From NCBI GenBank assembly GCA_026004395.1, contig BPJB01000001.1:905226-969225 (forward strand): a DNA stretch of 64,000 bases, written 5' to 3'. This document shows, piece after piece, positions 1-50,181 of the stretch. Origin of the DNA: Patescibacteria group bacterium (GTDB lineage Bacteria; Patescibacteriota; Microgenomatia; Levybacterales; UBA12049). Each line of letters opens with the position of its first letter. The stretch's first letter is position 1. The notes beneath the pieces were generated by a model. It ran no database searches. It had not been told where the DNA came from and was given only the letters and a program-made list of their open reading frames with translations. The translations under genes were made by a program, and so were the position numbers.

Positions 1-204
1 ACATCTCTTTGCACAGGAACTGCCAATAGATTTTCATCCAATAAATGGGCTGGCACTACGACAACTGGTGAAGAAGTCATCTGCAGTACTACAGGAGTCA
101 GCAGTCAAACTACGCGCGTAGGGTGGCAAGTTGAAGTCAATAATCTTCAACCTGCGGGAAGTTATACAGGAACAGTTATTCTCATTGCAACACCTACTTA
201 TTAA
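1..204 (+). CDS. C-terminal end of a secreted WxL-like surface protein (5' part lies outside the window)
   Basis: Frame 1 is open from the window edge to TAA at 202-204. The product ends ...NLQPAGSYTGTVILIATPTY. This is the same C-terminal motif as the 26267..27019 product (...QPAGTYTNVITYIATPTF) and the 28447..29925 product (...PSGEYQTAITYVATPTF). Confidence 0.5.
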   Translation, partial: TSLCTGTANRFSSNKWAGTTTTGEEVICSTTGVSSQTTRVGWQVEVNNLQPAGSYTGTVILIATPTY

Positions 205-211
205 CAAAATC

Positions 212-1156
212 ATGAAGCGGGTATATCCTCTTTCAGTATCAAGAAAATTAAGCCTTTTATTTTTTTTATTGGTTATTATAACTGTTCTGAGTTTATCAAT
301 CTCAGTCATTAAAACTTTAGTTAAAGCACAAAATGCCGGACAGTCTCTTGAGGTTTCTCCTCCTTCTCAAGATATCGAGGCTGACCCCGGAGATACAATT
401 ACAATCAAAGCCAAAATACGCAATCCAAGCAACCAAACTCTTCCTATCTCAGTACATCTTGAAGACTTCACTGCAGTTGGAGAGGAAGGACAGGTGGCAC
501 TCACTCAAGGAGGCAAATATAGTGTGGTGAGTTGGGCAAAAATAAATCCTACAAGATTTAATCTCAAACCCGGCGAGCAGAAAGAAGTAACTGCAACAAT
601 CAATATCCCTCAGAATGCAGCAGGTGGACGATATGGATCATTTATTTTTGCTGTAACTCCCGAGAATAACGAAAATCTCAATACAGCTAGTGTCTCCCAA
701 CAGGTGGCATCACTTTTTCTACTGAGAATTTCAGGTCCTGTAAAGGAAAAATTAGAGCTTAAAGATATTACTGCTCCACGATTTAGTGAATTTGGACCTA
801 TTCCCTTTAGGTTGAAGTTCGAAAACAAAGGCAATGTACATGTTAAAACTTACGGACTTATTAATGTTACTGATATCTTTGGCAGAAAGGTAGCTGATAT
901 AGTGGTCACAGGAACAAATGTCTTTCCTGAAGCAAGTAGAATCATTCAGGCACAGTTAAATAAAACATTGCTTATTGGACCTTTTACAGCTACAGCAATT
1001 ATGTATTATGGCACATCGAATGAGGTGCTCAATGCTACAACTACATTTTATGTCTTCCCTGTCAGAATCGCATTATTGATTATTGTACTTCTTATTATTC
1101 TCTATCTTCTGCGCAAACGCATAACACGAGCTTTTAAAGTGCTCTTTCGAAGCTAA
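212..1156 (+). CDS. DUF916/CscA-like cell-surface protein with signal peptide and C-terminal TM anchor plus basic tail
   Basis: The ORF track gives 131..1156. The more likely start is ATG at 212 (MKRVYPLSV...), just after the upstream stop at 204, so that start is used. N-terminal hydrophobic segment, a beta-rich body (LEVSPPSQDIEADPGDTITIKAKIRN...), and a C-terminal hydrophobic span followed by LLRKRITRAFKVLFRS. It is a paralog of 27034..28131 and 29936..30925. Confidence 0.55.
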   Translation: MKRVYPLSVSRKLSLLFFLLVIITVLSLSISVIKTLVKAQNAGQSLEVSPPSQDIEADPGDTITIKAKIRNPSNQTLPISVHLEDFTAVGEEGQVALTQGGKYSVVSWAKINPTRFNLKPGEQKEVTATINIPQNAAGGRYGSFIFAVTPENNENLNTASVSQQVASLFLLRISGPVKEKLELKDITAPRFSEFGPIPFRLKFENKGNVHVKTYGLINVTDIFGRKVADIVVTGTNVFPEASRIIQAQLNKTLLIGPFTATAIMYYGTSNEVLNATTTFYVFPVRIALLIIVLLIILYLLRKRITRAFKVLFRS

Positions 1157-11434: not shown

Positions 11435-11507
11435 TACCCCTGGAGGGAATTGCACCCCCGACCAACCCCTTAGGACGGGGCTGCTCTATCTACTGAGCTA
11501 CAGGGGC
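11435..11507 (-). tRNA. tRNA-Arg (anticodon CCT)
   Basis: The reverse complement folds as GCCCCTG-TA-GCTC-AGTAGAT-AGAGC-A-GCCCC-GTCCTAA-GGGGT-TGGTC-GGGGG-TGCAATT-CCCTC-CAGGGGT-A. Anticodon loop is GT-CCT-AA. CCA is not encoded. Confidence 0.7.
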
Positions 11508-11770
11508 ATATTATCTATCATAATATTACTTTTAATATAAAAGTTATAAAAAATACATCAAGATTTGCATCTTATCTTGATCTATTCTATACTCATTTGC
11601 TCTTAAAGTAAAATATTTTGCGACCAAATTAAAACTAAGGATTAACACATCAGTTGTTATTCTAGAAAACATGTGAATGATAGTTAGGTAGGTTTTCCTG
11701 CACAATACAATATAGAAATAGAATAATAAAAATCAAATAAGGATTAAAAAGATATTAAAATTTCTCTTTG

Positions 11771-11845
11771 CGGAGTGTAGCGCAGTTGGTAGCGCGCAGC
11801 GTTCGGGACGCTGAGGTCGGCGGTTCGAGTCCGCCCACTCCGACC
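11771..11845 (+). tRNA. tRNA-Pro (anticodon CGG)
   Basis: CGGAGTG-TA-GCGC-AGTTGGTA-GCGC-G-CAGCG-TTCGGGA-CGCTG-AGGTC-GGCGG-TTCGAGT-CCGCC-CACTCCG-A-CC. The T-loop TTCGAGT and the D-loop are canonical. Confidence 0.75.
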
Positions 11846-25493: not shown

Positions 25494-26171
25494 ATGAGCC
25501 AACTCCTAAAACAGGCATTATTTCTTTTTACATCATTTGGAGTTGTCTTTTTATGGAAAGAATCTACTTTTGTTGAATTTACAATACCCTTACTAGGATT
25601 TTTGGTCTTTCTCTACCTGCTACTTGCAAGCAAAAAGCCTCTTCTCTGGAAAAAATCTCAGTCAGTTGAGAATACACAACAACATTCCCTAGAGCAAAAT
25701 AAGAAAAAAATTTTTAATAAGGATGAGATCAATATTTTTATTCTTAATACCATTGTATTTCTTCTTATCTTCTCTACAGGATCTCTGAAATCTCCTCTTT
25801 TTTTCCTTCTCTACTTTATATCTTTTGGTATCGCTTTTGTACTTCTGCCACAGATAGTATTTGTCTTTATCTTAGGATCTATTTTGATCTTTATTCCTGA
25901 CGCTCTCTCTAATCAAACCCCCTCAGACACAAAATTGCTCAGCGAAAATCTTGTGAAATTAGCTTCCTTAGGACTAATCTCTCCACTTGCCTATTTTTTT
26001 GGCAAAGAATATCAGGAAAGGCTTATTCATCAAGAAAAAGATAAAGAGGTGGCAGAAATCATCAGCAACGAAGCAGCGAATGTTCTCAATAATGAGGAAG
26101 AAAAACTAAGTGAGGAAGATAAAGAACAACTGGTTGATATCATAGAAGAGAGTGAAAAACTCAAAGAATAA
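25494..26171 (+). CDS. hypothetical polytopic membrane protein with acidic coiled-coil-like tail
   Basis: Four or more hydrophobic helices, then an EEEKLSEEDKEQLVDIIEESEKLKE tail. Confidence 0.4.
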   Translation: MSQLLKQALFLFTSFGVVFLWKESTFVEFTIPLLGFLVFLYLLLASKKPLLWKKSQSVENTQQHSLEQNKKKIFNKDEINIFILNTIVFLLIFSTGSLKSPLFFLLYFISFGIAFVLLPQIVFVFILGSILIFIPDALSNQTPSDTKLLSENLVKLASLGLISPLAYFFGKEYQERLIHQEKDKEVAEIISNEAANVLNNEEEKLSEEDKEQLVDIIEESEKLKE

Positions 26172-26266: not shown

Positions 26267-27019
26267 ATGAAAAGCGCTACTATCATTACACTAAGCATTT
26301 TTATTATCTTATTCTTACTAGGTCAAAAGCTGCCTCCTGTTAATCATGTATTAGCCTTTACAATGATTGGTGATAACTGGAAAATTGACTTTGCCAATCT
26401 GAATATGGGAGGGGCAACTCAACTGGGATCAGGCAAAAAACTGACATTTACCACAGGTCAAACTGCACCCGGACTCTATACAGGCACTAATTATAAAGTA
26501 CGCGCTGGATTTCAGTATGTCTATACTCTTATTCCTTTCCGCTTTAGTATCTCCCAAACTCAAATTGACTTTGGCACCCTCACACCGACTAACCCTGTTA
26601 CTAGAACGAATACGCTGACAATTTCTAATGGATCTGCCAATGGTTATCAAGTAACAGCTTTTGAAGATCATCAACTTCTCAATCCTGCCAATGGCATGTT
26701 GATACCTGATACTACCTGTGACAATGGACTCTGTACAGAAACAACGTCAGCACAATGGACTAATACACTCACCTATGGGTTTGGTTATCGCTGCGATAAT
26801 ATAACAGGAACCGATTGTGCAACAGGGTTTACAAATAGCAATTATTATAAACAGTTTGCAGACTCATCCCTCAACGAATCACCCCAATCAGTAATGTCCG
26901 GAACCAACGTTGGACGCAGTAAACAAGTTCAGATTACTTATAAAGTCAATATCTCAGGTACTCAGCCGGCAGGAACATATACGAACGTCATAACCTATAT
27001 TGCTACACCAACATTTTAA
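26267..27019 (+). CDS. secreted WxL-like surface protein (module 2, A component)
   Basis: Signal peptide. Gly/Thr/Asn-rich beta-type sequence with conserved Cys pairs. C-terminus ...GTQPAGTYTNVITYIATPTF. Homologous to the 28447..29925 product and to the fragment at 1..204. Confidence 0.5.
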   Translation: MKSATIITLSIFIILFLLGQKLPPVNHVLAFTMIGDNWKIDFANLNMGGATQLGSGKKLTFTTGQTAPGLYTGTNYKVRAGFQYVYTLIPFRFSISQTQIDFGTLTPTNPVTRTNTLTISNGSANGYQVTAFEDHQLLNPANGMLIPDTTCDNGLCTETTSAQWTNTLTYGFGYRCDNITGTDCATGFTNSNYYKQFADSSLNESPQSVMSGTNVGRSKQVQITYKVNISGTQPAGTYTNVITYIATPTF

Positions 27020-27033
27020 GAAAGGCAATTAAA

Positions 27034-28131
27034 ATGAAGATCTTGCAAAAAATAGTTTTATCTACTGGAATTTTTTGTCTCCTCTTCATTATTTTTCCAT
27101 CGGATATCAAAGCGGCAACTTTTGATCTTGCTGTCAATCCTTCAATTTTTCAGATAGAGCTTAATCCTCCTGCTATTATTGAAGCAAAAAAATCATTGAC
27201 TATAGAAAATCTCAGTGACACTCCACTAACTCTGTCTATCCAATACAGACCCTTTAAGCCGAAAGATGAGTCCGGAATAATAGAATATTTGCCACGGGAA
27301 GACAGTTTTGTTGGAGCTGATCCTCTTATCTTTCAGAGAATACATATTATTGAAAATAATAATCCGATTGAGCAAATTACTCTGGCACCCAAACAAACAA
27401 AAAAACTTGATCTTAAAATGACAATCCCTAAAGATGAGCCTCCATCTGATTACTATTTTGCCATTCTTTTTCTCAGCCAAGAAGAAACTTCAGACAGTCT
27501 GCAAAGCTCATATTCAAATTATGTTGGTGGTATCGGAGTTAGTGTACTTCTTTCAATAGGTCCCAAAAAAGAAACAACTGGAAAAATTGAGGAATTCTCA
27601 ACATCTTTTTTCCATGAGAAAAGCCCTGTACCCTTTACAGTACGTATCAGAAATACGAGTCAGCACTTCATCTACCCCAAAGGACAGATAACAATCAAAA
27701 ATATGTTTGGTCAGACAATCGGAATTGTTGATTTGTTGCCTGTTAATATTTTGGCAAACTCTATTCGCGCTCTGCCAAGTAAGGAGAATTTTATCTTTGC
27801 TGCACAAAAAAATAGATTAAACATTGCTGAAGAAGACTCAAAATCATTCTCCAAAGAAGAGTTGGAAATGATAAAGCAATATGAAAAAATAATGAAAAAC
27901 GAGCAATCAAATCTCTCAATCAGTCCGAAGGCTTTTTGGAACGGAGGGTTTTTGCTTGGACCCTACTCTGCCACTTTGACTGTAGCTCTGAGTGATCAAG
28001 GTCCTCTCCTTACACGAACTATTCATTTTTTTGCACTACCAATCTATCTTATAATTACTTTTTTTATTGTCATTGCTATTGTCTTGTTTATTCGTCAGAG
28101 ATTGAACAAGATTAGGACCAAAGTATCCTGA
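27034..28131 (+). CDS. DUF916/CscA-like anchored surface protein (module 2, B component)
   Basis: Signal peptide. AVNPSIFQIELNPPAIIEAKKSLTIENLSDTPLTL... The C-terminal hydrophobic helix is followed by the basic tail RQRLNKIRTKVS. Start is 15 bp after the A gene. Confidence 0.55.
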   Translation: MKILQKIVLSTGIFCLLFIIFPSDIKAATFDLAVNPSIFQIELNPPAIIEAKKSLTIENLSDTPLTLSIQYRPFKPKDESGIIEYLPREDSFVGADPLIFQRIHIIENNNPIEQITLAPKQTKKLDLKMTIPKDEPPSDYYFAILFLSQEETSDSLQSSYSNYVGGIGVSVLLSIGPKKETTGKIEEFSTSFFHEKSPVPFTVRIRNTSQHFIYPKGQITIKNMFGQTIGIVDLLPVNILANSIRALPSKENFIFAAQKNRLNIAEEDSKSFSKEELEMIKQYEKIMKNEQSNLSISPKAFWNGGFLLGPYSATLTVALSDQGPLLTRTIHFFALPIYLIITFFIVIAIVLFIRQRLNKIRTKVS

Positions 28132-28285
28132 TTAAAATCTTTCTTGCAAACTAAGATCAATATTTGCAACCTTAGCTAGAACAAAAACTCTCAATTTTTA
28201 AAAACTCTACTTTCTGCTGCTATATTTTTTACATGCAGTCAAAGGCTAACAAATTATAAAAATCAATATCAAATAGAATATTGCC

Positions 28286-28315
28286 AAGTATACCTGTATA
28301 CCTGTATACCTGTAT
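28286..28315. repeat. family-1 repeat variant (CAAGTATACCTGTATACCTGTATACCTGTATA; TATACCTG x3)
   Basis: Between module 2 and module 3. Confidence 0.7.
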
Positions 28316-28446
28316 AATGATTTAAAAATTGGATCTCAAACATTTTGCTTATTCAATGACCAAACTACTCTTTTATTTATTTTAACTATTGACAAGTTAA
28401 AAAATTTGTCTTCATACTAATAATACTCAATGATAAATACTCAAAG

Positions 28447-29925
28447 ATGAGAAAATACAGCTTTATTTTAACGTATTGTTTAGTGGCTTTAGTTGTCACA
28501 GTTTTTTTTGCGGCACAGGCACACGCTGCAACATTAACCGGAGCCAAAGATACGATTACTACCTCACGACCATCGCCCTCAACTCCTCTCTCTGCAAATG
28601 CTGCATCAGGAGCTTATCAGGTAAGCGTATATAATAACGGCTCCCGCTTTCTTGCATCAGATTCTGCCAAGCTCATAAGAGGCACAACGCTTATTGATCC
28701 TGTAATTACGATTGCATCCCAATCAGCTGGATTAACATCTGTTTATTTTTCTGACGCACTAGGTGCTGCTGGCCAAAATGGAACAGACGTGCTCTTTTTC
28801 CCAGTAACTGCAATGCATACTATTCAGTTTACCGTACAGAACACAATACCCACCAATGGAGATATCGTCATCACTTTCCCAACACTCTCTGCAACTGATG
28901 CCGATAACGATGCATCCCCATCTGCTACCACATTTCAGTTCAATAATCTAGTCAGCGGTACCGGTGGTAGAGACAACATAGATGTTTATGATGATTCAAC
29001 AGATATCTCAGCCAATGTGACAATTACTGAGACTGAGCCCTCACCGGGCAATCCCGGAATTATTAGTATAAATCTTGATTCTGGGACTATTGCAGCTGGC
29101 TCGGTAGTCAAAATCTATCTTGGCTGCACAGCATCGACCTCTGCATCCTGCACTACTCAGGCACCACGCATCATCAATCCTACCAAATCAGCAACAGCAG
29201 GAACAGCTGATATCTGGAAAATAAATATCAGCACCAAAGATAGTAGCGGTATATTACTCGATGAGGCTACAGTGGCAATTGGAACTATCGAAACTGTCGA
29301 AGTACGAGCAACAGTTGATGCAACACTTACTTTCTCAATCGGCGGGATTGCAAATGGATCAGCAGTTAACACAGGAAATACAACAGGTTGTGCAGCAACA
29401 GAGACAACTAGCGCAGGCAACCCATCAACAGCAACACTTGTTGATCTAGGTGTACTCGCTAACACACCAACCACAACAGGTACTCCAATCAGCAACATCG
29501 CAGCCCAACTTATAACCATTACTACAAACGCTGCCAATGGATATACCCTCACAGCAACATCCTCAGGCCAACTTCGCAACTTTCAGTCAGGATTCGCAAT
29601 TGCAAGCAGTACTACACCTCAGGCATTTCCCAATGGCACTCATTTCTTTGGGATTAATGCCTGTGGACTAGATGTCAATACCAGTACGTGGGGAAATAAT
29701 AACTGTAACACTTATATAACAGGATCATCAAATGCCTGCAAATATGGATGGCCAACACCCACAACAGCCATCACACTAGCATCTGACTCAACAGGTCCAG
29801 TCGGCAATACCATCACAGCAGGAAATGGATTAGTCACTGTCAGGTATGCAGCTAGTATTGATGCCAGTGTACCATCGGGTGAGTACCAAACAGCTATAAC
29901 TTATGTAGCAACACCAACATTCTAA
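28447..29925 (+). CDS. secreted WxL-like surface protein, large Thr/Ser/Ala-rich variant (module 3, A component)
   Basis: Signal peptide (MRKYSFILTYCLVALVVTVFFAAQAHA). The C-terminal ~200 aa aligns with the 26267..27019 product (..TNAANGYTLTA.., Cys pairs, ..GEYQTAITYVATPTF). Confidence 0.5.
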   Translation: MRKYSFILTYCLVALVVTVFFAAQAHAATLTGAKDTITTSRPSPSTPLSANAASGAYQVSVYNNGSRFLASDSAKLIRGTTLIDPVITIASQSAGLTSVYFSDALGAAGQNGTDVLFFPVTAMHTIQFTVQNTIPTNGDIVITFPTLSATDADNDASPSATTFQFNNLVSGTGGRDNIDVYDDSTDISANVTITETEPSPGNPGIISINLDSGTIAAGSVVKIYLGCTASTSASCTTQAPRIINPTKSATAGTADIWKINISTKDSSGILLDEATVAIGTIETVEVRATVDATLTFSIGGIANGSAVNTGNTTGCAATETTSAGNPSTATLVDLGVLANTPTTTGTPISNIAAQLITITTNAANGYTLTATSSGQLRNFQSGFAIASSTTPQAFPNGTHFFGINACGLDVNTSTWGNNNCNTYITGSSNACKYGWPTPTTAITLASDSTGPVGNTITAGNGLVTVRYAASIDASVPSGEYQTAITYVATPTF

Positions 29926-29935
29926 AAGGAGCATT

Positions 29936-30925
29936 ATGTATAAGGATTTAATTCTAATAAAACTAAAAGATAAAAAAATTTTTCTTTTGCTATCTATTAT
30001 TTTAGCTTTGTTACTATTCACCCTCTCACGACAAGCCAAAGCGCAAGAGATGCTGCGTACTTTTACTGTCTCTCCTCCTGTAATTGAAACCACAATTAAA
30101 CCCGGCGGCTATATGGAAGGCAAAATGAAGATTTTTAATGAAAGCTCTACTCCACTTACTTTTGATGCATCTTTACAAGACTTTATTGTTGACAATGATG
30201 AGGGACGCCCAACAATTCTCCAAGAAGATACACTCAGTAATAAATACTCAGCTAGTTCATGGATTGCAGTTTATCCTCATACTTTTACAGTGCAACCCAA
30301 AGAAAGATTTGAAGTAAGCTACTACATCAACGTACCTCAAAATGCACGTCCCGGAGGACGCTATGCTACAGTAGTCTTCAAACCACGCTCTTCTCTCTCT
30401 GTTGCGGGTACAGGAACTGCTGTTCAAACACAAATCGGAAGCCTTTTCTACATCAGTGTAGATGGACCAATCACAGAAAAAGCAGAAGTCACCAAGTTTG
30501 ATGCTAAAAGATTTGTCGAGAATGGACCTGTTACAGTATTCACCAGTATTAAAAATCTAGGTGATCTTCACATCAGACCAAAAGGATATATCAAAGTCAC
30601 CAATATGCTGGGCAAACAATCTTATGTAACTACTCTTGCAGAGTATAATATCTTTCCAGAGGCACAACGCAACTATGAGAACACATTTGGTAAAAAATTC
30701 ATGTTTGGCCGCTACAAGGCAGAACTTATCGCAAGCTATGGTAAAAACAATAATCTTCCATTAACAGCCACTATCTATTTCTGGGTGTTCCCATGGAAAG
30801 TTGCGCTTATCCTAATTGTTATAGTCATCACAGCAATACTTGGGTATCTCTACATGAGAAAGAATAAGAAAACTCATGGACATGTTCAACAGCCAACGGA
30901 TACTCCAACTTCTTCTGATAATTAA
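29936..30925 (+). CDS. DUF916/CscA-like anchored surface protein (module 3, B component)
   Basis: TFTVSPPVIETTIKPGGYMEGKMKIFNESSTPLTF... C-terminal TM plus YMRKNKKTHG. Confidence 0.55.
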   Translation: MYKDLILIKLKDKKIFLLLSIILALLLFTLSRQAKAQEMLRTFTVSPPVIETTIKPGGYMEGKMKIFNESSTPLTFDASLQDFIVDNDEGRPTILQEDTLSNKYSASSWIAVYPHTFTVQPKERFEVSYYINVPQNARPGGRYATVVFKPRSSLSVAGTGTAVQTQIGSLFYISVDGPITEKAEVTKFDAKRFVENGPVTVFTSIKNLGDLHIRPKGYIKVTNMLGKQSYVTTLAEYNIFPEAQRNYENTFGKKFMFGRYKAELIASYGKNNNLPLTATIYFWVFPWKVALILIVIVITAILGYLYMRKNKKTHGHVQQPTDTPTSSDN

Positions 30926-31361: not shown

Positions 31362-32246
31362 CTAGTATCCAAACATCCACGCATGATGCAACTTCCTTTC
31401 ACGGCGTCTTAGAAGACCATACAGTTTGGAGTTATAAATAAAGGTAAATTTCTCAGGCCAAATTTTGAGAACAAAAAAGGTAATAAGAGGTATTAGAGGA
31501 AACACAAGCCACAATGGTCCCAAACCAAGCCCTGTAAACAGCTCTACAAGCCATTTCCAGAGTCTTTTTATCAAAACAATGATTTGCTGCCACCATGACA
31601 ACGCAATAAGCCTAACGCTATCTGATGGGTTTTCAGAAGGCTTCCTGTTGTACACTGCAGTCGCAAATAATTGATATACACCTGCTTTAAGATTGGTGAG
31701 CGTGTATTCGTAGTATCCATTTTGATCTGCTGTGATAGTAAAAATCATCCCATTATCCATATGGATGGTAACAGTAGCACCCGGCATCGTATAACCAAAA
31801 ACCAGAGCATTTCCTCCGGCTGCGATCTCTGATCTGAGAAGACCAATTGTTGGAGGGAGGAATATTCCATCCCGTCTTATATCCTGCACAGCCCCTCTCA
31901 CCTTAAAACATGTTTTGGAATCGCCAATACGTTTAAAATCAATATGTTCAAGACAATACTCTTTAATCGTTTTGCGAATGAGAACATCTAGTAGAGAAAA
32001 ATTGCCGCCTTTATCAGCTACTGTGGCGCGCACAAATACTCCATCAATCGTAAGCACAATTGATGCAAAAGGGGAAGCAAATCCGGAAATACTCAGATTA
32101 TTCTCTCCAACACGCGCCAAAACCTGAGTAGTAGCAGAATAATTTTTAAGACCAAGAATTTTGGCAAAATAATCTTTGCTTAAAAGCATGGAGAGAAGAA
32201 ATAAAAAAGATGTAATGCAACCGATGATAAATAACTTAGATTTCAT
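31362..32246 (-). CDS. membrane protein with carboxypeptidase-regulatory-like (CarbopepD_reg/Big-like) beta-sandwich domain
   Basis: Signal/TM at the N-terminus. ...GATVTIHMDNGMIFTITADQNGYYEYTLTNLKAGVYQLFATAV. C-terminal hydrophobic segments. Confidence 0.4.
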   Translation of the reverse strand: MKSKLFIIGCITSFLFLLSMLLSKDYFAKILGLKNYSATTQVLARVGENNLSISGFASPFASIVLTIDGVFVRATVADKGGNFSLLDVLIRKTIKEYCLEHIDFKRIGDSKTCFKVRGAVQDIRRDGIFLPPTIGLLRSEIAAGGNALVFGYTMPGATVTIHMDNGMIFTITADQNGYYEYTLTNLKAGVYQLFATAVYNRKPSENPSDSVRLIALSWWQQIIVLIKRLWKWLVELFTGLGLGPLWLVFPLIPLITFFVLKIWPEKFTFIYNSKLYGLLRRRERKLHHAWMFGY

Positions 32247-34304: not shown

Positions 34305-37300
34305 ATGGACTTACTTGCCCGGTTCAAAAAATACTTAGAAGCACAGAAAAATCCGCCATCATACCTGACGGTTAAAAATTACCTATCAGATATTCGTCAA
34401 TTCATCACGTGGTATGAAACTACCCAACAGCAGGAATTCAAACCAAAGCAAATCACAAAACTTTTGATTGATGCGTATATCAACTACCGCAAGAACTTAA
34501 ATTCAGCTTCTGTCAGATCAACAGAAAGATACTTATCATCGCTTCGGAAGTTTTTCGACTTTCTTAAAGAGAAAAAATATATCAGCTCTAATCCACTCAA
34601 AGACCAAAACAGACTTACCAATAATCCTGATCCGTGGAAACTAAAAGCATTTAAAGATTATCTTTATGTCTATAACGCATCCAATCTAACTATAAAAAAC
34701 TATATCAATGATGTTAAACAGTTTCTGGACTGGGTTGCCAAATCTTCGGGAATAAAAACTCCAGATCAAGATACTATAACTTTTTGGAGAAATACCAAAA
34801 TTAATATATTTTCCTTGATTAATAAGGAGCTCTTACAAAAATACCGCAGCTATCTTCTCTCACAACTCAAATTATCAGAGAATCTTTATCTTGAAAAGCA
34901 GAACAAAGACATAAACACTACAACAATACAGCAATCAGGCAATGCAATCTCTCTATCAGATTCCAAAGAAGCAACTGCAACCGATTTGAATACCAAACAA
35001 GGACTCTCTATTCTTTCTATCAACCGCAAACTCTCATCACTGCGCAAATTCCTTTCATGGGCACAAGATGAAGGACTGGTACAAATTGATCTCTCTTCCC
35101 TCTCCAACATCAGACGCACTGCAGAGGTGAAAGCTATATCATCTGAAGATGCACAGCGCACCTTCACTGGCCCAAGTGCTGCAGGTGAATCAGAAAAAAC
35201 ACAACTGATTTCTCATCTTGCACCCTTAGATGACAGTTCTAAAGATAATCAAAATGACAAGTATCCAAGTCGCCAAATTGAAACTCTTGATACTGAACAA
35301 AAACATAAATACTCCTCATTCCCCCCTCTAAGACTTATCCAAAAGTTAGTAAAAGCTACTCTGCTAGGTATAGATCTGACAATCATCGCTGGTATTGCCA
35401 AATTACTTGAACAGATAACGTACATCAAATGGCTTGCCTCAGGTAAGCAGATATTTATAAAGAGTGCTAAAAAACAATTAGACTTTATTGTCAATAAAAA
35501 CATCAAATCCACGCTTGATAATACTCAACCAGAAAACCGATTTTCTAGTATTGTGGATCTAGTATCTAAAGAAAATCCAAGATTGGAAAAGAACTCAAAT
35601 ACTCAATATCATATACCAAATATCAAATCTCGCTTTCACCCCGCTCATCCAGAATTTACTACCCTGCCTCTGCATTACAGAATCTTGGGGCATCTGCGTC
35701 ATACTAGACCACAATGGTACATAAAGTATCATCAGTATCCGATCGTCCACTATTTCCATTTCGCAGCTCTTATCATCTTTATGAGTGTGATTGGATTTGG
35801 ACTGTACCGATCTTTCTTTGAGCAGCCACAAAAGGAAAAAACTCTTGCTGCTCCTCCAACAGCTCCTCCTAGGATCCTCTCTTTTCAAGGAAGACTAACA
35901 GATATTTCAGATAATCCCATCACCTCAGCTACACCGCTGAGATTTGCGATTTATAATGATCTCACTGCGTCAGGCTCAGCGCTACTTTGGCAGGAGGTGC
36001 AAACAGTTACACCAGACACAGATGGTGTCTTCTCTGTGTTGCTGGGAACAAATACTACTATTCCCTCTAGTGTCTTTACAGACAACTCAAGTCTATATCT
36101 TGGTGTTACGGTACAGACAGACCCTGAGCTTACACCTAGACAACAGATCGCAACAGTGGCATTTGCAGCCAACTCTGAGACGTTGCAGGGACTTTATCCT
36201 ATCACAGCAGCTGGTGCTGGCACATCCAATGTAGTTCTTGCCCTTGATTCATCCGGTAATTTGACAATTGGAGGATCAGCAACACCTAAATTTTCAGCAA
36301 CAGGCGGCGAATTTACCCTATCAGGTAATGTTCTCTCTCTGACAACAAATGTAGGATCCAATACCAACATCAATATTAGCCCAGATGGTAAAGGCGTAGT
36401 AAATATTATCAAACCGTTACAAAATACATCACTCAATAATAACATTACTACAGCTGCTGGAGCTGTAGAAGTAGATGATCTCTTCGCAGTTTTAGCCACA
36501 TCAAGTGGTCAATCAGCCTTTACTATCAATCAAAACGGTGCAGGACCACTGATTAGCGCATCAAGTAGTGGAATTGCTAAATTTACAGTTAATAACGATG
36601 GCTCTGCTTATTTTGCAGGAAATGTAGGCATAGGTATTACTTCACCTACTGGTATATTATCTTTAGCCAATTCTGCAGCTGGTGTTGAGATACTTTTCTC
36701 AGGTGCAAATGCGGCTAATATATATCAAAGTACGTCAGGACAATCTCTATATATTAATACCAATACCGGTGATCTCAGATTAGGAGCTAACGGCTCAGGA
36801 TCAAATGACTTAGTAATAAAATCTACTGGCAACATTGGTATTGGCAATACTACAGCTTCCAACTTCAAACTAGAAGTGACAGGCAATATTGGTCCATCCG
36901 CTGACGTGACCTATAATCTAGGATCACCATCTCTCAGATGGAACAATGTCTATGCCAACAACTTCATCGGCAGCGGCACAGGAGGTACCGCAGGCTATTG
37001 GCAATTAAATAACGGTGCGCTCTCTCCTGCATACAGCACCAATGATGTACTCATAGGAGGAACTGCTACCTCCAGTGCCAAATTTGGATTTATCAACGTC
37101 ATCGGCAGCGGCACACCTACTGCGACAATCTCTGGTAATTTTTCTATTCAAGTCCCAACTGGAACAAATCCTGCCATTAAAATTAATGCTCTCAATGGAG
37201 GATCTATCAACTTCCAAACAGCGACAACAGGACAAGGAGACGCTGGACTCACTTCACGTCTATTCATCAATAATAACGGCAACGTCGGCATCGGGACAAC

Positions 37301-38885
37301 AGCACCAGTACACAAACTAGAACTAGCCTCACACACAACAGCAGCTGGCGGCATAGGTTTTGGCACTGATGTAGAACTCTACAGAGGAGCTGCTAACACA
37401 CTCTACCTTGCCTCTGGTGACTCCCTCAACTTAGTATCAGGCAATCTACAAGTTGCTGGTACAACAGTTATCACCAGTGGTAGGATTATCCAGGCTGCCA
37501 ATGGATCTGCTGCCTCACCCTCATTCACCTTCGCATCCGACACCAACACAGGCATATTTGGGACTGGTAGTGATGTACTCGCTCTCTCAACTGCTGGTGT
37601 AGAAAGACTAAGAGTTGATGCCAGTGGCAATGTGGGTATTGGGACGACTGCACCAACTTCCAAACTAGACATCACCTCAACTGGTACAACCACCAACGGA
37701 TTAAATATCACAGCCAACTCCCTAACAACTGGAACAGGTTTCTCCCTCTCCTCCACATCAACAACTCTCACATCAGGTGGACTCCTCTCTCTTGACTGGT
37801 CCCCAACATCAGCCACTACAGCAACAGGTGATCTTCTCTCCATCAACATCGGTACCAACGGCAACATCGGCAAACTTTTCAACATCAAAGACGCAGGATC
37901 AAGTATCTTCTCCGTCTCAGAATCAACATTTGAAACATCTCTCCCCGTCAACTTCACCTCTCCAGGTGACGTCTCCATTGCCTACGACCTACTCTTCACC
38001 AACCCAACAGCCTCCTACATCAAATCATCAGCTCCTCTCTACATCCAAGCTGGTGAAACATTCAACTCCTCAGACCTCACACTTCAGACCTACAATGCTG
38101 GCAACGTCATCATTGACTCCCAAGCTCTTGTTACCAATCAAGCAGCCACCATCTCAGGTCAACTAGTTATCGGAACAACAAACCCCAACTCCGCTCACAT
38201 AGGCAACTTTTATCTGACCAACTCATCAACCTTTGGCAAAGCTCTTGCCATACTCAACCAAACAGAATCCGCTGACATCTTCACTGCCTCCTCCTCCGGC
38301 ACCACAAGATTTACCATATCCAACAACGGCACCCTCACTGCCACAGCTTACACAATAAACAATGGCTTACTATATACCAATACATCAGGTGTCATCTCTC
38401 AAGTTTCTGACACACCTGCCACCAACGAATGTCTCATCTTCAACGGATCTACCATCCTCTGGGATGCATGCTCAACTGGTGGAGGTGTCACTGGATCAGG
38501 CACCACCAACTACATACCCAAATGGAACTCTTCCTCCTCACTCACAGACTCAACCATCTTTGACAACGGCAACGTGGGTATTGGCACAACAACACCAACT
38601 ACCAAGTTAGAACTAGGCAGTGGTCAATTAGCAGTACCACTAGGATCAGCTACAACTCCATCCTACACCTTCAGCGGAGATCTCAATACCGGTATCTGGT
38701 CATCAGGAGCAGACACTCTCAACTTCTCCACTGGAGGATCTGAAAGAATAAGAATTATCAGCAACGGCAACGTCGGCATCGGGACGACGAGTCCAGCAGT
38801 AAAGCTACATGTTATAGGAACAGGTAAATTCGAAACAGGTCCTAATACATGGAACTGGATAGAAATAAATAGAGGCGGGGGATAA
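34305..38885 (+). CDS. giant membrane-anchored fibre protein 1: N-terminal tandem XerD-type SAM-like/core-binding domains, TM, then GNVGIGTT..KL.V tail-fibre-like repeats
   Basis: aa 1-100: LLARFKKYLEAQKNPPSYLTVKNYLSDIRQFITWYE...IDAYINYRKNLNSASVRSTERYLSSLRKFFDFLKEKKYISSNPL matches the phage-integrase N-terminal SAM-like domain. Two further partial copies follow (LKAFKDYLYVYNASNLTIKNYINDVKQFLDWV; SINRKLSSLRKFLSWAQDEGLV). There is no R..HxxR..Y catalytic domain. Strong TM at about aa 480 (IVHYFHFAALIIFMSVIGFGLY). About 1000 aa of Gly/Thr/Ser/Asn-rich repeats with recurring NGNVGIGTTAPxxKLEL. Confidence 0.75.
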   Translation: MDLLARFKKYLEAQKNPPSYLTVKNYLSDIRQFITWYETTQQQEFKPKQITKLLIDAYINYRKNLNSASVRSTERYLSSLRKFFDFLKEKKYISSNPLKDQNRLTNNPDPWKLKAFKDYLYVYNASNLTIKNYINDVKQFLDWVAKSSGIKTPDQDTITFWRNTKINIFSLINKELLQKYRSYLLSQLKLSENLYLEKQNKDINTTTIQQSGNAISLSDSKEATATDLNTKQGLSILSINRKLSSLRKFLSWAQDEGLVQIDLSSLSNIRRTAEVKAISSEDAQRTFTGPSAAGESEKTQLISHLAPLDDSSKDNQNDKYPSRQIETLDTEQKHKYSSFPPLRLIQKLVKATLLGIDLTIIAGIAKLLEQITYIKWLASGKQIFIKSAKKQLDFIVNKNIKSTLDNTQPENRFSSIVDLVSKENPRLEKNSNTQYHIPNIKSRFHPAHPEFTTLPLHYRILGHLRHTRPQWYIKYHQYPIVHYFHFAALIIFMSVIGFGLYRSFFEQPQKEKTLAAPPTAPPRILSFQGRLTDISDNPITSATPLRFAIYNDLTASGSALLWQEVQTVTPDTDGVFSVLLGTNTTIPSSVFTDNSSLYLGVTVQTDPELTPRQQIATVAFAANSETLQGLYPITAAGAGTSNVVLALDSSGNLTIGGSATPKFSATGGEFTLSGNVLSLTTNVGSNTNINISPDGKGVVNIIKPLQNTSLNNNITTAAGAVEVDDLFAVLATSSGQSAFTINQNGAGPLISASSSGIAKFTVNNDGSAYFAGNVGIGITSPTGILSLANSAAGVEILFSGANAANIYQSTSGQSLYINTNTGDLRLGANGSGSNDLVIKSTGNIGIGNTTASNFKLEVTGNIGPSADVTYNLGSPSLRWNNVYANNFIGSGTGGTAGYWQLNNGALSPAYSTNDVLIGGTATSSAKFGFINVIGSGTPTATISGNFSIQVPTGTNPAIKINALNGGSINFQTATTGQGDAGLTSRLFINNNGNVGIGTTAPVHKLELASHTTAAGGIGFGTDVELYRGAANTLYLASGDSLNLVSGNLQVAGTTVITSGRIIQAANGSAASPSFTFASDTNTGIFGTGSDVLALSTAGVERLRVDASGNVGIGTTAPTSKLDITSTGTTTNGLNITANSLTTGTGFSLSSTSTTLTSGGLLSLDWSPTSATTATGDLLSINIGTNGNIGKLFNIKDAGSSIFSVSESTFETSLPVNFTSPGDVSIAYDLLFTNPTASYIKSSAPLYIQAGETFNSSDLTLQTYNAGNVIIDSQALVTNQAATISGQLVIGTTNPNSAHIGNFYLTNSSTFGKALAILNQTESADIFTASSSGTTRFTISNNGTLTATAYTINNGLLYTNTSGVISQVSDTPATNECLIFNGSTILWDACSTGGGVTGSGTTNYIPKWNSSSSLTDSTIFDNGNVGIGTTTPTTKLELGSGQLAVPLGSATTPSYTFSGDLNTGIWSSGADTLNFSTGGSERIRIISNGNVGIGTTSPAVKLHVIGTGKFETGPNTWNWIEINRGGG

Positions 38886-39070
38886 GATATACTTCTGGTA
38901 GTGATGACACAAACAGAGGAATATGGTCCAATGGCCAATACGCGATGTCGGTATTTACACAAATGGTGTTAATAGAATTTTAGTCAAAAGGAGATTCTGG
39001 CAACGTCGGCATCGGGACAACAACACCCCTTGGCAAACTCAATGTTGATGGTGCTGCCACCGGCAAAGCA

Positions 39071-47911: not shown

Positions 47912-48575
47912 AAACTTCATGTAATCGGAAACTACAACAGATAACTAATGATTTAGAAGCTATTGACCCCAGCAACCGTATTCTTTGTAGCATCAAATGA
48001 TACTCTATCAACTACATGGCTCATCGGTAAAAACTCCAGGAATCAATTAATACTTAAAGATAAAGATCCAAATACTACTCTTACTGGTCAACGGCAGGCA
48101 CAGTTGCACTTTCAAACACACAACGGCACTGATTGATGGAACTGAATATAATTTTGCAACAGCTGCATTAACTAGTACAAGCGACTACTGTTGTGATTGA
48201 AATTACTAATCCCAATGGCCTTAACGCAGTTTACTCAAATGCAGCATGGTTTACGAGTGTTTTCTTTAGGAACAATTATGCCACAGCTCTATAACAGTTG
48301 ACGCACGTTATGATGGACATCCAGGATCCTATCAAACAATTTGGTCAACAACAACAAACGATCAAAGAACATGGCTAAGTTCAGCTGTCACGACCACGCT
48401 CACGGGATGACAGTCCCAGAAAATCACATCGTTGGTGGATCACTTACCTTGGTACCAGCGCTGGAGTCCACTTAACTACGGATGGACTCCAAACAGTAGA
48501 ACGGCAACTATCTCAGTATGCTCTTGAACTAGGAACAACATTTTATCGGTCATCAACTTTCCTACTGGTAGCTGC
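47912..48575 (+). pseudogene. degenerate, stop-riddled remnant of fibre-repeat coding sequence between giant ORFs 2 and 3
   Basis: Directly after the TAG at 47909-47911 the sequence still encodes KLHVIGNYNR, the same KLHVIG motif that ends ORF 1. It then gives protein-like translation interrupted by many stops in all frames. Confidence 0.4.
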
Positions 48576-50147: not shown

Positions 50148-50181
50148 CACAATCTCTGCTACTACATCAGCATCTACAGCA

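What the first reader, a model, noticed from the sequence alone, without database searches (positions are those of the whole stretch)
26267..30925. Tandem duplication of the A-B surface module with strong size divergence of the A component (250 versus 492 aa)
Seen directly: 26267..27019 (A) and 27034..28131 (B) are followed by 28447..29925 (A', twice as long through insertion of a Thr/Ser/Ala-rich N-terminal region) and 29936..30925 (B'). The A genes conserve only the C-terminal ~200 aa (Cys pairs, NGY motif, ITY.ATPTF end). The B genes conserve the beta-sandwich start and the TM-plus-basic-tail anchor, each preceded by an aromatic-Pro motif (YVFPVR / FFALPIY / FWVFPWK). Diversifying paralogous adhesin-and-anchor pairs next to a sortase and a mega-fibre island suggest a host- or partner-attachment repertoire. 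The conserved F-x-x-P just before the anchor could be a sorting or processing signal.
Basis: partly seen in the sequence, partly recalled or inferred. Interest (0 to 1): 0.55.

Follow-up and report, generated by a model that had tools for sequence, protein, structure and literature searches.

The report
Pam-type pilus operon in CPR bacterium
The four genes are two pilin-plus-chaperone pairs of a recently described "Pam" pilus, the thin filament that ultra-small CPR bacteria probably use to reach host cells, so this is a distant new member of a known system and not a new adhesin-and-anchor invention.

Summary
The four ORFs exist as described. A/A' share a C-terminal domain of about 160 aa. B/B' align end to end.

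A and A' are distant homologues of the Pam pilins of CPR bacteria (NCBIfam PamT and Pam_pilin_C, E 1e-11 to 4e-8, below the curated cut-offs). A is collinear with the single-domain tip pilin PamT. A' is a two-domain pilin whose "Thr/Ser/Ala-rich insertion" is a conserved, confidently folded beta-sandwich domain.

B and B' are signal peptide, two Ig domains and a C-terminal TM helix. Their best structural matches are Enterococcus WxLIP, RbmA and chaperone-usher chaperones, which is the PamC/PamD architecture.

The duplication is ancient. A-B-A'-B' is syntenic in at least 43 of 83 related Microgenomatia loci, and the two B types form clean separate clades.

A second pilin-chaperone-pilin-chaperone locus straddles the left edge of the window.

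The pre-TM motif is real: F-x-x-x-P is invariant in 54/54 sequences. It lies at the junction of the last beta-strand and the TM helix.

The sortase is 15 kb away, and none of the pilin or chaperone genes read carries LPXTG.

Verdict: new member of a known kind, with one chaperone per pilin and a WxLIP link that the Pam preprint does not mention.

The parts
1..204 (+). 3' end of pilin gene A0. The full gene (382 aa, two-domain pilin) continues left of the window.
   Evidence: Frame-1 translation ends ...QPAGSYTGTVILIATPTY*. The full gene was recovered on L084:10111-11259(-). NCBIfam Pam_pilin_C E 4.2e-6. The linker motif SATVDPTLTFTV matches the A' linker HMM at 6.6e-10.
212..1156 (+). B0, a chaperone-like protein (314 aa): signal peptide, two Ig-like domains, FYVFP motif, TM helix, basic tail.
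   Evidence: Pfam WxLIP_PGBD 1.3e-5. Aligns with the B family with invariant F and P. TM at aa 281-299.
25494..26171 (+). Conserved multi-TM protein (225 aa, acidic C-terminal tail), the first gene of the operon. Role unknown.
   Evidence: Found directly upstream of A on the same strand in 70 of 83 related loci. No Pfam or NCBIfam family. TM segments.
26267..27019 (+). A: PamT-like single-domain pilin (250 aa). Signal peptide aa 1-30; conserved N-terminal segment aa 31-95; Pam pilin C-terminal domain aa 96-250 (window 26552-27016).
   Evidence: NCBIfam NF058579 PamT E 1.3e-11, collinear 11-250 against 5-241 of 241; NF058581 E 5.2e-8. 33/33 aligned family members hit both models. 1308 relatives found; the 32 aligned are 57-92% identical to A.
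27034..28131 (+). B: membrane-anchored PapD/WxLIP-like chaperone cognate to A (365 aa). F-x-x-x-P at 28027-28041; TM helix about 28042-28110.
   Evidence: AF2 pLDDT 88.3: two beta-sandwich domains plus C-terminal helix 337-364. Foldseek top hits are WxLIP 9i1y/9i25 (E 7e-11), RbmA, CsuC, CfaA, Caf1M, DraB and EcpB. Pfam PF06030 3.9e-5; 39/54 family members hit it. Starts 14 nt after the A stop.
28132..28446 (+). 315-nt AT-rich intergenic region between the two modules, with the best promoter-like site of the region (28389-28418) and an 8-bp tandem repeat (28288-28316).
   Evidence: Promoter-like sites are not more frequent than in shuffled sequence, so this is weak evidence.
28447..29925 (+). 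A': two-domain Pam-type shaft pilin (492 aa). Signal peptide aa 1-27; N-terminal beta-sandwich domain aa 28-280 (28528-29286); linker / candidate donor strand VEVRATVDATLTFSIGG aa 281-303 (29287-29355); C-terminal domain aa 328-492 (29428-29922).
   Evidence: NCBIfam NF058581 E 3.9e-8 on aa 330-492. 25/55 homologues hit it. AF2 pLDDT 86.5, with a dip to 60 at aa 281-290. Full-length homologues at 50-86% identity. Conservation by region.
29936..30925 (+). B': membrane-anchored chaperone cognate to A' (329 aa). FWVFP at 30779-30793; TM helix about 30800-30856; basic then Pro/Thr/Ser tail.
   Evidence: BLASTP against B E 1e-13. Starts 10 nt after the A' stop, behind AAAGGAG. B-type proteins that follow long pilins form a separate clade from those that follow short pilins.
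31362..32246 (-). Convergent Ig-domain protein (294 aa) with a signal peptide and a C-terminal TM region. Candidate PamR-like filament anchor (untested).
   Evidence: Pfam Big_6 4.7e-8, two stretches. TM at aa 242-260. Syntenic in L001 and L003 and present in 40 related loci.
34305..38885 (+). Giant fibre protein with N-terminal integrase-SAM-like domains. A conserved neighbour of the pilus genes (context, not shown to be part of the pilus).
   Evidence: Pfam Phage_int_SAM_1 5.3e-17. Homologous giant ORFs lie downstream in at least 36 related loci, in some directly after A-B.

Best explanation
The region is a Pam-type pilus operon of a Microgenomatia (Levybacteria-like) CPR bacterium. It is built as two pilin-chaperone gene pairs.

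Shown:
- A and A' carry the Pam pilin C-terminal domain.
- A is collinear with the single-domain tip pilin PamT.
- A' has an extra conserved N-terminal beta-sandwich domain joined to the C-terminal domain by a conserved, strand-forming linker.
- B and B' are signal peptide + two PapD/WxLIP-like Ig domains + C-terminal TM helix.
- Each B gene starts 10-14 nt after its pilin gene.
- The two B types are separate, old orthologous groups.

Inferred, by analogy with the cryo-EM and AlphaFold model for Ca. Mycosynbacter amalyticus:
- The pilins are exported by Sec.
- Each is caught at the outer face of the cytoplasmic membrane by its cognate membrane-tethered chaperone, which completes the open Ig-like C-terminal domain with one of its own strands.
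- The filament grows from the base by donor-strand exchange. The linker strand of an incoming A' displaces the chaperone strand from the preceding subunit.
- A, which has no N-terminal domain or linker, can only accept a strand and so caps the distal tip.
- A membrane-anchored Ig protein (31362-32246) may terminate and tether the fibre.
- The filament extends the reach of the tiny cell towards a host.
For: NCBIfam:
- A hits PamT at 1.3e-11 over its full length and Pam_pilin_C at 5.2e-8. A' hits Pam_pilin_C at 3.9e-8.
- 33/33 A homologues and 25/55 A' homologues repeat these hits.
- The two further pilins left of the window also hit: Am1 at 5.7e-13 (49.2 bits against a cut-off of 55) and A0 at 4.2e-6.

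Pilin structure:
- The A/A' shared domain scores hhalign probability 97.6%.
- The A' model has pLDDT 86.5: two beta domains, with a confidence dip exactly at the linker.
- The linker alternates hydrophobic residues (V.V.A.V.A.L.F.I) and recurs in A0 at E 6.6e-10.

Chaperone candidates:
- The B model (pLDDT 88.3) has two Ig domains plus a TM helix.
- Its best PDB matches are WxLIP, RbmA and eight families of chaperone-usher chaperones, all at probability 1.0.
- 39/54 B-family members hit Pfam WxLIP_PGBD.

Other features:
- Signal peptides on all four proteins and paired Cys in the pilins.
- Synteny: A-B-A'-B' in at least 43 of 83 loci from Levy-, Shapiro-, Woese-, Beckwith- and Roizmanbacteria.
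- The cognate B clades separate 112/112 by nearest neighbour.

Published system: two-domain pilins, PamT, TM-anchored PapD-like PamC/PamD, an RbmA-like anchor PamR, a tail-fibre-like neighbour, and occurrence in Saccharimonadia and Microgenomatia (bioRxiv 10.64898/2026.03.03.709456).
Against: - All NCBIfam scores are below the curated cut-offs (44 against 240; 33 against 55).
- No direct comparison with the M. amalyticus sequences or structures was possible. PDB 25PZ and 25QA are not in the library used, and the A' model found only weak generic Ig hits.
- Having one chaperone per pilin differs from M. amalyticus (two chaperones named against the five pilin-like proteins named). It would also fit a stoichiometric anchor-ligand complex.
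- No filament has been seen for this lineage.
- The strongly conserved mature N-terminus of A' (aa 36-50) leaves open which strand is donated.
Confidence: 0.75

Rival explanations
1. A WxL/WxLIP-like static surface complex, which is the first reader's 'adhesin plus anchor'. A and A' would be displayed as monomers on the cell surface. Each would be held permanently by its own membrane-anchored B protein through insertion of a B strand, with no polymerisation.
For: - The best structural match of B is E. faecium WxLIP, including the entry 'WxLIP bound to long WxL'.
- Pfam WxLIP_PGBD hits 39/54 family members.
- The architecture and length (signal peptide, Ig, Ig, TM; 314-365 aa) equal those of WxLIP (337-365 aa).
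- WxL clusters also hold one small protein that is essentially only the shared domain and one large protein that carries it at the C-terminus.
- One-to-one gene pairing suits a stoichiometric complex.
Against: - A and A' match the Pam pilin domain, which was seen by cryo-EM to polymerise.
- They do not match the Pfam WxL domain, even at E 10.
- There is no W-x-L C-terminal motif.
- The A' model did not retrieve the WxL chain of 9i25 among its top 50 matches.
- A conserved donor-type linker strand is present in A' and A0.
Confidence: 0.15
2. A recently duplicated, diversifying adhesin repertoire. The two A-B modules would be young tandem copies evolving fast under host pressure.
For: The modules are adjacent and share the same order and strand. 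A differs greatly in size from A'.
Against: - The paralogues are only 24-29% identical, whereas each has orthologues at 79-92% identity.
- The A-B-A'-B' order is conserved across several Microgenomatia groups (Levy-, Shapiro-, Woese-, Beckwith- and Roizmanbacteria).
- The B types split into two clean clades: within-clade identity 33-40%, between-clade 20%, nearest neighbour in the same class 112/112.
- A is the most conserved gene of the locus.
Confidence: 0.04
3. Sortase- or other sorting-enzyme-dependent surface proteins. The F-x-x-x-P + TM + basic tail of B would be a tripartite sorting signal, cleaved so that B (and the A bound to it) is attached to the wall.
For: - The tripartite layout (motif, hydrophobic helix, Arg/Lys cluster) resembles LPXTG-type signals.
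- F and P are invariant in 54/54 sequences.
- A sortase gene is present in the window.
Against: - The motif is inside the last beta-strand of a confidently modelled domain (strand 325-334, helix 337-364, pLDDT 94-98), not after a flexible stalk.
- There is no LPXTG in A, A', A0, Am1, B, B', B0 or Bm1.
- The sortase is 15 kb away on the other strand. No sortase appears among the called genes of two Levybacteria loci, L001 (and its duplicate L002) and L003.
- PamC/PamD and WxLIP are described as keeping their TM helix.
Confidence: 0.03

Closest known systems
Pam pilus of Candidatus Mycosynbacter amalyticus (Saccharimonadia): PamA/PamB/PamE pilins, PamT tip pilin, PamC/PamD chaperones, PamR anchor (Troman et al., bioRxiv 10.64898/2026.03.03.709456; NCBIfam NF058579, NF058581)
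   Same: - A Pam-type pilin C-terminal domain in A, A', A0 and Am1.
- A short PamT-collinear pilin plus two-domain pilins of PamA-like (492 aa) and PamB-like (382 aa) size.
- Paired cysteines and signal peptides on all parts.
- PapD-like two-domain chaperones that keep a C-terminal TM helix.
- No usher.
- An Ig-domain, TM-anchored neighbour and a fibre-like giant neighbour.
- A CPR host. The preprint already reports remote homologues in Microgenomatia.
   Different: - Sequence similarity is far below NCBIfam's naming cut-offs.
- There is one dedicated chaperone gene after every pilin gene (four pairs in this genome), against two chaperones for five pilin-like proteins.
- An extra conserved multi-TM gene precedes A.
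- No ATP-synthase, CorB or MFS neighbourhood was identified among the window ORFs scanned against Pfam.
- B carries a two-helix insert.
- No filament has been observed.
WxL / WxLIP (DUF916-DUF3324) surface clusters of Lactobacillales and Listeria (Hassan & Williamson 2022/2023; PDB 9i1y, 9i25)
   Same: - B proteins share architecture, length and best structural match with WxLIP, and hit Pfam PF06030.
- The cluster logic is the same: one small protein that is essentially only the shared domain, one large protein with N-terminal domains plus that domain at the C-terminus, and a TM-anchored two-Ig partner predicted to insert a strand into it.
   Different: - A and A' have no detectable WxL domain or W-x-L motifs.
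- There is no DUF3324 hit.
- There is no LPXTG protein in the cluster.
- The host is CPR, not Firmicutes.
- WxL proteins are regarded as peptidoglycan-bound monomers, not filaments.
Chaperone-usher pili of Gram-negative bacteria (Pap/Fim, archaic Csu, Caf1, CFA/I)
   Same: - A two-domain Ig chaperone fold: CsuC, CfaA, Caf1M, DraB, EcpB, YadV and CupB2 are all retrieved at probability 1.0.
- An incomplete Ig-like pilin domain.
- An invariant aromatic residue at the extreme pilin C-terminus.
- Presumed donor-strand complementation and exchange.
   Different: - There is no outer membrane and no usher.
- The chaperone is membrane-tethered.
- The donor strand is presumed to be an inter-domain linker, not an N-terminal extension.
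- The PapD_N/PapD_C Pfam families were not detected.
Sortase-assembled pili of Gram-positive bacteria
   Same: A monoderm host, Ig-like pilin domains, and a sortase gene somewhere in the window.
   Different: There is no LPXTG sorting signal or TM tail on the pilins and no adjacent pilin-specific sortase. The pilins end in a free ...ATPTF.

Membership tests
Pam pilus system (CPR) | [quoted passage not shown] | tested here: inconclusive
   Significant but sub-threshold. A 5.2e-8 (33.1 bits), A' 3.9e-8 (33.5 bits), Am1 5.7e-13 (49.2 bits), A0 4.2e-6; the curated cut-off is 55 bits. The hit is reproduced in 33/33 A homologues and 25/55 A' homologues. Homology is supported; the naming threshold is not reached.
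Pam pilus system (CPR) | A single-domain tip pilin equivalent to PamT (NF058579) | tested here: inconclusive
   A aligns over the whole model (aa 11-250 against positions 5-241 of 241) at E 1.3e-11, but scores 44 bits against an equivalog cut-off of 240. The best score among 33 homologues is 4.4e-14.
Pam pilus system (CPR) | [quoted passage not shown] | tested here: met
   The AF2 model of A' (pLDDT 86.5) has an all-beta NTD at aa 28-280, a low-confidence linker at 281-290 followed by strand 294-301, and an all-beta CTD. The NTD is 56% conserved across 55 homologues.
Pam pilus system (CPR) | Assembly by donor-strand exchange of the linker into the neighbouring CTD | not testable with these tools
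   This needs multimer modelling or cryo-EM. The only indirect support is a conserved linker with alternating hydrophobic residues, shared by A' and A0.
Pam pilus system (CPR) | Operon-encoded PapD/FimC-like chaperones that keep a C-terminal TM helix | tested here: met
   The B model has two Ig domains plus helix 337-364. Foldseek retrieves CU chaperones at probability 1.0. TM helix plus basic tail in B, B', B0 and Bm1.
Pam pilus system (CPR) | RbmA-like, TM-anchored terminator PamR | tested here: inconclusive
   31362-32246(-) has a signal peptide, two Big_6-type Ig stretches and a C-terminal TM, and it is syntenic. It was neither modelled nor compared with PamR. The match of the A' linker HMM inside its first Ig domain (E 0.013) is probably generic.
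Pam pilus system (CPR) | Restricted to CPR (Saccharimonadia, Microgenomatia) | tested here: met
   The source MAG is labelled Patescibacteria. 111 GTDB species carry A. The informative record titles are nearly all Levy-, Shapiro-, Woese-, Beckwith- or Roizmanbacteria, Microgenomates or Patescibacteria. Many other records carry the label 'uncultured Gammaproteobacteria', which I take to be a mislabelled placeholder, and one 1.7-kb contig is labelled Bacteroidetes.
WxL / WxLIP cluster (Firmicutes) | WxLIP = DUF916 (PF06030) + DUF3324 + TM helix | tested here: inconclusive
   PF06030: B 24.1 bits and B0 25.6 bits against a cut-off of 27.3; 39/54 family members hit it, best 6.7e-8. Some orthologues carry the precomputed PF06030 call. 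DUF3324 was not detected. The top structural match is WxLIP 9i1y/9i25.
WxL / WxLIP cluster (Firmicutes) | Small and large proteins end in a WxL domain with two W-x-L motifs | tested here: not met
   No WxL Pfam hit for any of the 33 A-family members at E up to 10, nor for A or A' at E up to 1. The C-terminus is ITY(I/V)ATPTF. No PDB sequence hit to the WxL chain.
Chaperone-usher pili | An outer-membrane usher and a periplasmic (soluble) PapD-family chaperone | tested here: not met
   No usher or PapD_N/C Pfam hit was found for any window protein scanned. The chaperone-like proteins are TM-anchored. Only the fold is shared.
Sortase-dependent pili | Pilins with a C-terminal LPXTG sorting signal and an adjacent pilin sortase | tested here: not met
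   A, A', A0, Am1, B, B', B0 and Bm1 all lack LPXTG. The pilins have no C-terminal TM. The sortase is at 10353-11276(-), 15 kb away. No sortase is among the called genes of L001 or L003.

The most novel reading that the evidence does not exclude
The membrane-anchored 'chaperones' of Pam pili (the B family here) and the WxLIP proteins of Firmicutes would be one protein family. The Pam operon (short pilin + long pilin + TM-anchored two-Ig partner) and the WxL cluster (small WxL + large WxL + WxLIP) would then be two branches of a single ancient monoderm system built on strand complementation. If so, either WxL proteins of lactobacilli, enterococci and Listeria are assembled (perhaps polymerised) like pilins, or the CPR 'chaperones' double as permanent anchors. 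The Pam preprint does not mention WxL.
Probability: 0.3. Interest if true: 0.65.

Novelty: new member of a known kind. Interest (0 to 1): 0.42.

Why it matters
CPR/Patescibacteria make up a large share of bacterial diversity, and how these ultra-small cells find and hold a host is largely unknown. These genes are annotated only as "hypothetical" in the source MAG. Recognising them as a Pam-type pilus operon gives a concrete, testable attachment apparatus for Levybacteria-like Microgenomatia.

The work shows three things:
- The system has a conserved core: membrane protein, tip pilin, chaperone, shaft pilin, chaperone, Ig anchor candidate, giant fibre.
- Each pilin has its own co-evolving chaperone.
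- The chaperone family is recognisably related to WxLIP of Gram-positive gut bacteria. That link could join two so far separate literatures.

Tried and rejected
- **Sequence search of solved structures.** I searched with A', B and the three family profiles. Only chance hits came back: DAHP synthase, antibody chains, a glucanotransferase, HCV E2. The Pam structures (25PZ, 25QA) are evidently not in the copy, and WxLIP is too distant for HMMER.
- **Foldseek of the A' model against PDB.** Only weak generic Ig matches appeared: integrins, SdrD, CfaE/CfaB, BcpA, TTHA1873. This gives no support for or against identity with WxL.
- **tblastn of B against plasmids**, to fetch a WxL cluster for a profile comparison: no match.
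- **Pfam WxL domain in the A family:** absent even at E 10. A weak, recurrent hit to the 'Tip pilin GBS104-like Ig' domain (15/33, best 1.4e-4) was not pursued.
- **Linker HMM against all window ORFs**, to find a donor strand in the putative anchor. The second-best hit was inside its first Ig domain (E 0.013). I judged it a generic beta-strand resemblance.
- **Exact-sequence look-ups** of B0 (two start codons) and of the 139-aa gene failed. The glycosyltransferase look-up succeeded and revealed the second locus.
- **Supplement of the preprint:** it holds no sequences, so no direct alignment with PamA/B/C/D/T/R was possible.
- **Rfam and terminator/promoter scans** of the region gave nothing beyond chance.
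- **Minus-strand ORFs** inside the four genes (81-140 aa) overlap the conserved plus-strand genes. I treated them as shadow ORFs.

Full report
**1. Observation**

The four ORFs are present on the + strand at the stated coordinates:

| Gene | Coordinates | Length |
|---|---|---|
| A | 26267-27019 | 250 aa |
| B | 27034-28131 | 365 aa |
| A' | 28447-29925 | 492 aa |
| B' | 29936-30925 | 329 aa |

- All four begin with a typical signal peptide. B and B' also end in a hydrophobic helix followed by Arg/Lys.
- Each B gene starts 14 or 10 nt after its A gene, behind a Shine-Dalgarno-like sequence. A 315-nt AT-rich spacer separates the two pairs.
- A and A' are similar only in their C-terminal parts. 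BLASTP gives 29% identity over 170 aa, E 1e-8. The profile-profile comparison gives probability 97.6%, E 2.8e-12, A 96-250 against A' 328-492.
- B and B' align over their whole length at 24% identity, E 1e-13. The exception is an insert of about 45 aa in B that is predicted to form two helices.
It is directly preceded by the last 67 codons of another A-type gene, ending ...LIATPTY.

The shared A domain is about 160 aa. The pre-anchor motif is F-x-x-x-P.

**2. What the A genes are**

- NCBIfam places A on the model 'CPR-type pilus protein PamT' (NF058579) at E 1.3e-11. The alignment is collinear, aa 11-250 against 5-241 of 241 positions.
- Both A and A' fall on 'Pam pilus system pilin subunit' (NF058581) at E 5.2e-8 and 3.9e-8.
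- The scores are well below NCBI's naming cut-offs (44 against 240 bits; 33 against 55 bits). These are distant relatives, not equivalogs.
- The hits are specific and reproducible. All 33 aligned A homologues hit both models (best 4.4e-14 and 2e-10). 25 of 55 A' homologues hit NF058581.
- The models derive from a 2026 preprint (bioRxiv 10.64898/2026.03.03.709456). It solved cryo-EM structures of two filaments of Ca. Mycosynbacter amalyticus and described:
  - a single-domain tip pilin, PamT;
  - PapD/FimC-like chaperones PamC/PamD that keep a C-terminal TM helix;
  - an RbmA-like, TM-anchored terminator, PamR;
  - remote homologues in Microgenomatia.

**3. The 'insertion' in A'**

- A' has hundreds of full-length homologues at 50-86% identity.
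- Its N-terminal half is as T/S/A-rich as its C-terminal domain (38% against 40%). It has normal sequence entropy (3.81 bits) and is nearly as conserved (56% against 63% identity to A' across 55 sequences).
- AlphaFold2 on that alignment gives mean pLDDT 86.5. The model has an all-beta N-terminal domain (aa 28-280), a dip in confidence to 60 exactly at aa 281-290, and an all-beta C-terminal domain.
- The segment between the domains, VEVRATVDATLTFSIGG, alternates hydrophobic residues like a long edge strand. It recurs almost unchanged in the paralogue A0 (SATVDPTLTFTV; linker HMM E 6.6e-10).
- This is the Pam two-domain pilin layout, not a low-complexity insertion. A (250 aa) matches PamT in length.

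**4. What the B genes are**

- The AF2 model of B (pLDDT 88.3) has two beta-sandwich domains followed by a long C-terminal helix, aa 337-364.
- Foldseek against the PDB, all at probability 1.0, ranks:
  - first, WxLIP of Enterococcus faecium (9i1y, and 9i25 'bound to long WxL'; E 7e-11);
  - then RbmA;
  - then chaperone-usher chaperones of many families (CsuC, CfaA, Caf1M, YadV, CupB2, EcpB, DraB), together with ASH/MSP-type PapD-like domains of eukaryotes.
- At sequence level, B and B0 hit Pfam PF06030 (WxLIP_PGBD, formerly DUF916) at 3.9e-5 and 1.3e-5, just under the gathering score. 39 of 54 family members hit it, best 6.7e-8.
- Signal peptide + two PapD-like Ig domains + TM helix is exactly how the preprint describes PamC/PamD. 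It is also how Hassan and Williamson describe WxLIP.
- NCBIfam returned no family for any of the B proteins.

**5. The pre-TM motif**

- In an alignment of B with 51 homologues plus B' and B0, F332 and P336 are invariant (54/54). R356 in the tail is present in 50/54.
- In the model the Phe lies in the last beta-strand (325-334) and the Pro one residue before the TM helix (337-364), in a region with pLDDT 94-98.
- The position argues for a structural strand-to-helix junction and against an exposed sorting signal.
- A, A', A0, Am1, B, B', B0 and Bm1 all lack LPXTG. The only sortase in the window (10353-11276, minus strand) lies 15 kb away, behind tRNA synthetases, NDK, ComEC and ComEA. No sortase appears among the called genes of two Levybacteria loci.

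**6. Age and conservation of the arrangement**

- The source is MAG KatS3mg089 ('Patescibacteria group bacterium', a 1.08-Mb contig).
- A scan of one genome per GTDB species found A in 111 species. The informative record titles are nearly all Levy-, Shapiro-, Woese-, Beckwith- and Roizmanbacteria, that is, class Microgenomatia. Many other records carry the label 'uncultured Gammaproteobacteria', which I take to be a mislabelled placeholder.
- An HMM census of 83 loci gave A-B-(long pilin)-B in at least 43. Most of the rest were truncated, or had A-B followed directly by a giant ORF.
- B-type proteins that follow a short pilin and those that follow a long pilin form two clean groups. Within-group identity is 33% and 40%; between-group identity is 20%. 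The nearest neighbour is in the same class in 112/112 cases, and UPGMA splits them exactly.
- The 'tandem duplication' is therefore old. It has been kept as two orthologous pilin-chaperone pairs, which points to cognate specificity.
- A is the most conserved gene: 57-92% identity among the 32 relatives aligned, with 1308 relatives found in all. That does not fit a diversifying adhesin.

**7. Wider locus**

- A look-up through the neighbouring glycosyltransferase recovered the sequence left of the window (L084).
- The order there is pilin Am1 (359 aa), chaperone-like Bm1 (312 aa, FVVVFP motif + TM), pilin A0 (382 aa, PamB-like size), B0, and a 139-aa gene.
- Am1 hits PamT at 3.1e-15 and Pam_pilin_C at 5.7e-13 (49.2 bits). 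A0 hits Pam_pilin_C at 4.2e-6.
- The genome thus has four pilin-chaperone pairs in two A-B-A-B loci about 26 kb apart. M. amalyticus has two named chaperones (PamC, PamD) against five named pilin-like proteins (PamA, PamB, PamE, PamT, PamR).
- Three further genes are syntenic with the four:
  - a 225-aa multi-TM protein directly upstream of A (70 of 83 loci);
  - a convergent Ig-domain protein with a signal peptide and a C-terminal TM (40 loci). By architecture it is the obvious PamR candidate, but this is untested;
  - a giant fibre protein with N-terminal integrase-SAM-like domains (at least 36 loci). The preprint likewise notes a tail-fibre-like protein as a central neighbour of pam operons.

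**8. Mechanism**

Shown: homology of the pilin C-terminal domain to Pam; two-domain architecture with a conserved linker; chaperone fold plus membrane anchor; tight gene pairing; co-divergence of chaperone types with pilin types.

Inferred from the Pam model and from chaperone-usher biology:
- The pilins are exported by Sec.
- The cognate tethered chaperone captures each one by donor-strand complementation.
- The filament grows from its base by donor-strand exchange, using the A' linker.
- A sits at the distal tip because it lacks an N-terminal domain and linker.
- A TM-anchored Ig protein may provide tethering.

I put 0.75 on this.

The main rival (0.15) is a non-polymerising, WxL-like display complex in which B is a permanent anchor. 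It is favoured by the WxLIP resemblance and the 1:1 stoichiometry. It is disfavoured by the Pam-domain homology of A and A' and by the absence of any WxL signal.

The recent-duplication/diversifying reading and the sortase/sorting-signal reading are essentially excluded.

**9. Novelty**

- The system is already described (preprint plus NCBIfam models), and its presence in Microgenomatia was reported through language-model searches. I therefore file this as a new, distant member of a known kind.
- What goes beyond the description:
  - the strict one-chaperone-per-pilin organisation, with two ancient chaperone clades;
  - the conserved upstream membrane protein;
  - the sequence- and structure-level link of the chaperone family to WxLIP/DUF916 of Firmicutes. 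The preprint does not mention this link; the term occurs 0 times in it.
- The parallel between 'short pilin + long pilin + TM-anchored two-Ig partner' and 'small WxL + large WxL + WxLIP' is the most novel reading my evidence leaves open.
- I could support only the chaperone half of that parallel.

**10. Limits**

- I could not compare with the M. amalyticus sequences or coordinates.
- Tip and shaft roles, the identity of the donated strand, and the anchor role of 31362-32246 are inferences. The very conserved mature N-terminus of A' (aa 36-50) is an alternative candidate for the donated strand.

Noticed in passing
window 25494-26171 (+): A 225-aa protein with 3-4 TM segments and a very acidic C-terminal tail, with no Pfam or NCBIfam family. 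It sits directly upstream of the tip-pilin gene on the same strand in 70 of 83 related loci. It is probably an undescribed component of the pilus operon.
   Followed up: partly
window 31362-32246 (-): A convergent 294-aa protein with a signal peptide, two Big_6-type Ig stretches and a C-terminal TM region. It is syntenic in 40 related loci. By architecture it is a candidate PamR-like filament terminator or anchor, but it was neither modelled nor compared with PamR.
   Followed up: partly
window 34305-38885 (+), continuing through the large ORFs to 59646: Giant fibre proteins. The first has two cytoplasmic-type phage-integrase SAM-like domains at its N-terminus, then a TM segment, then a Gly/Thr/Ser-rich fibre. 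Homologous giant ORFs (up to 7095 aa) follow the pilus genes in at least 36 loci, sometimes directly after A-B. A DNA-binding-type domain fused to a surface fibre is odd and unexplained.
   Followed up: partly
L084:9159-13368 (left of window position 1; minus strand of L084 = plus strand of the window): A second pilin-chaperone-pilin-chaperone locus: Am1 359 aa, Bm1 312 aa, A0 382 aa, B0 314 aa. Am1 combines a PamT-like N-terminal segment, an inserted middle region and the Pam C-terminal domain. It is followed by a 139-aa gene with one TM segment (window 1157-1576) that has no homologue in the related loci.
   Followed up: partly
window 28552-28596 (A' aa 36-50), with the start of mature A0 on L084: The mature N-termini of A' (ATLTGAKDTITTS) and A0 (GTLSNAKVLINNS) resemble each other. 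A' aa 36-50 (TITTSRPSPSTPLSA, with S40-R41-P42-S43 invariant) is among its most conserved stretches. This could be a second strand-exchange or chaperone-recognition element, or a modification site.
   Followed up: no
window 27781-27906 (B aa 250-291): A two-helix insert of about 45 aa in the second Ig domain of B. It is absent from B' and B0 and variable in sequence among B orthologues.
   Followed up: no
window 36001-54000: G+C rises from about 0.37 to 0.45-0.48 across the fibre island. This may reflect Gly/Ala/Thr-rich coding or foreign origin.
   Followed up: no
window about 48967-49077 and about 50003-50113: The same 37-residue peptide (HPTPTSHQTTISTSKAIWTSEAHYMSVDLKLPITGSA) is encoded twice, about 1 kb apart. 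Both copies are in frames other than the called ORF, so this is a long direct DNA repeat inside the fibre island. Their LPITG is the only LPxTG-like string found in the window.
   Followed up: no
window 28288-28316: A perfect 8-bp tandem repeat, GTATACCT x 3.6, in the intergenic region between B and A', about 100 nt upstream of the best promoter-like site.
   Followed up: no
window 60397-61041 (-) and 11435-11843: An IS200-like Y1 transposase gene at the right end of the fibre island. Two divergent tRNA genes lie next to the sortase gene.
   Followed up: no
A family (alignment A3): 15 of 33 A homologues give a weak Pfam hit to 'Tip pilin GBS104-like, Ig-like domain' (best E 1.4e-4). This is a faint echo of Gram-positive tip pilins.
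   Followed up: no
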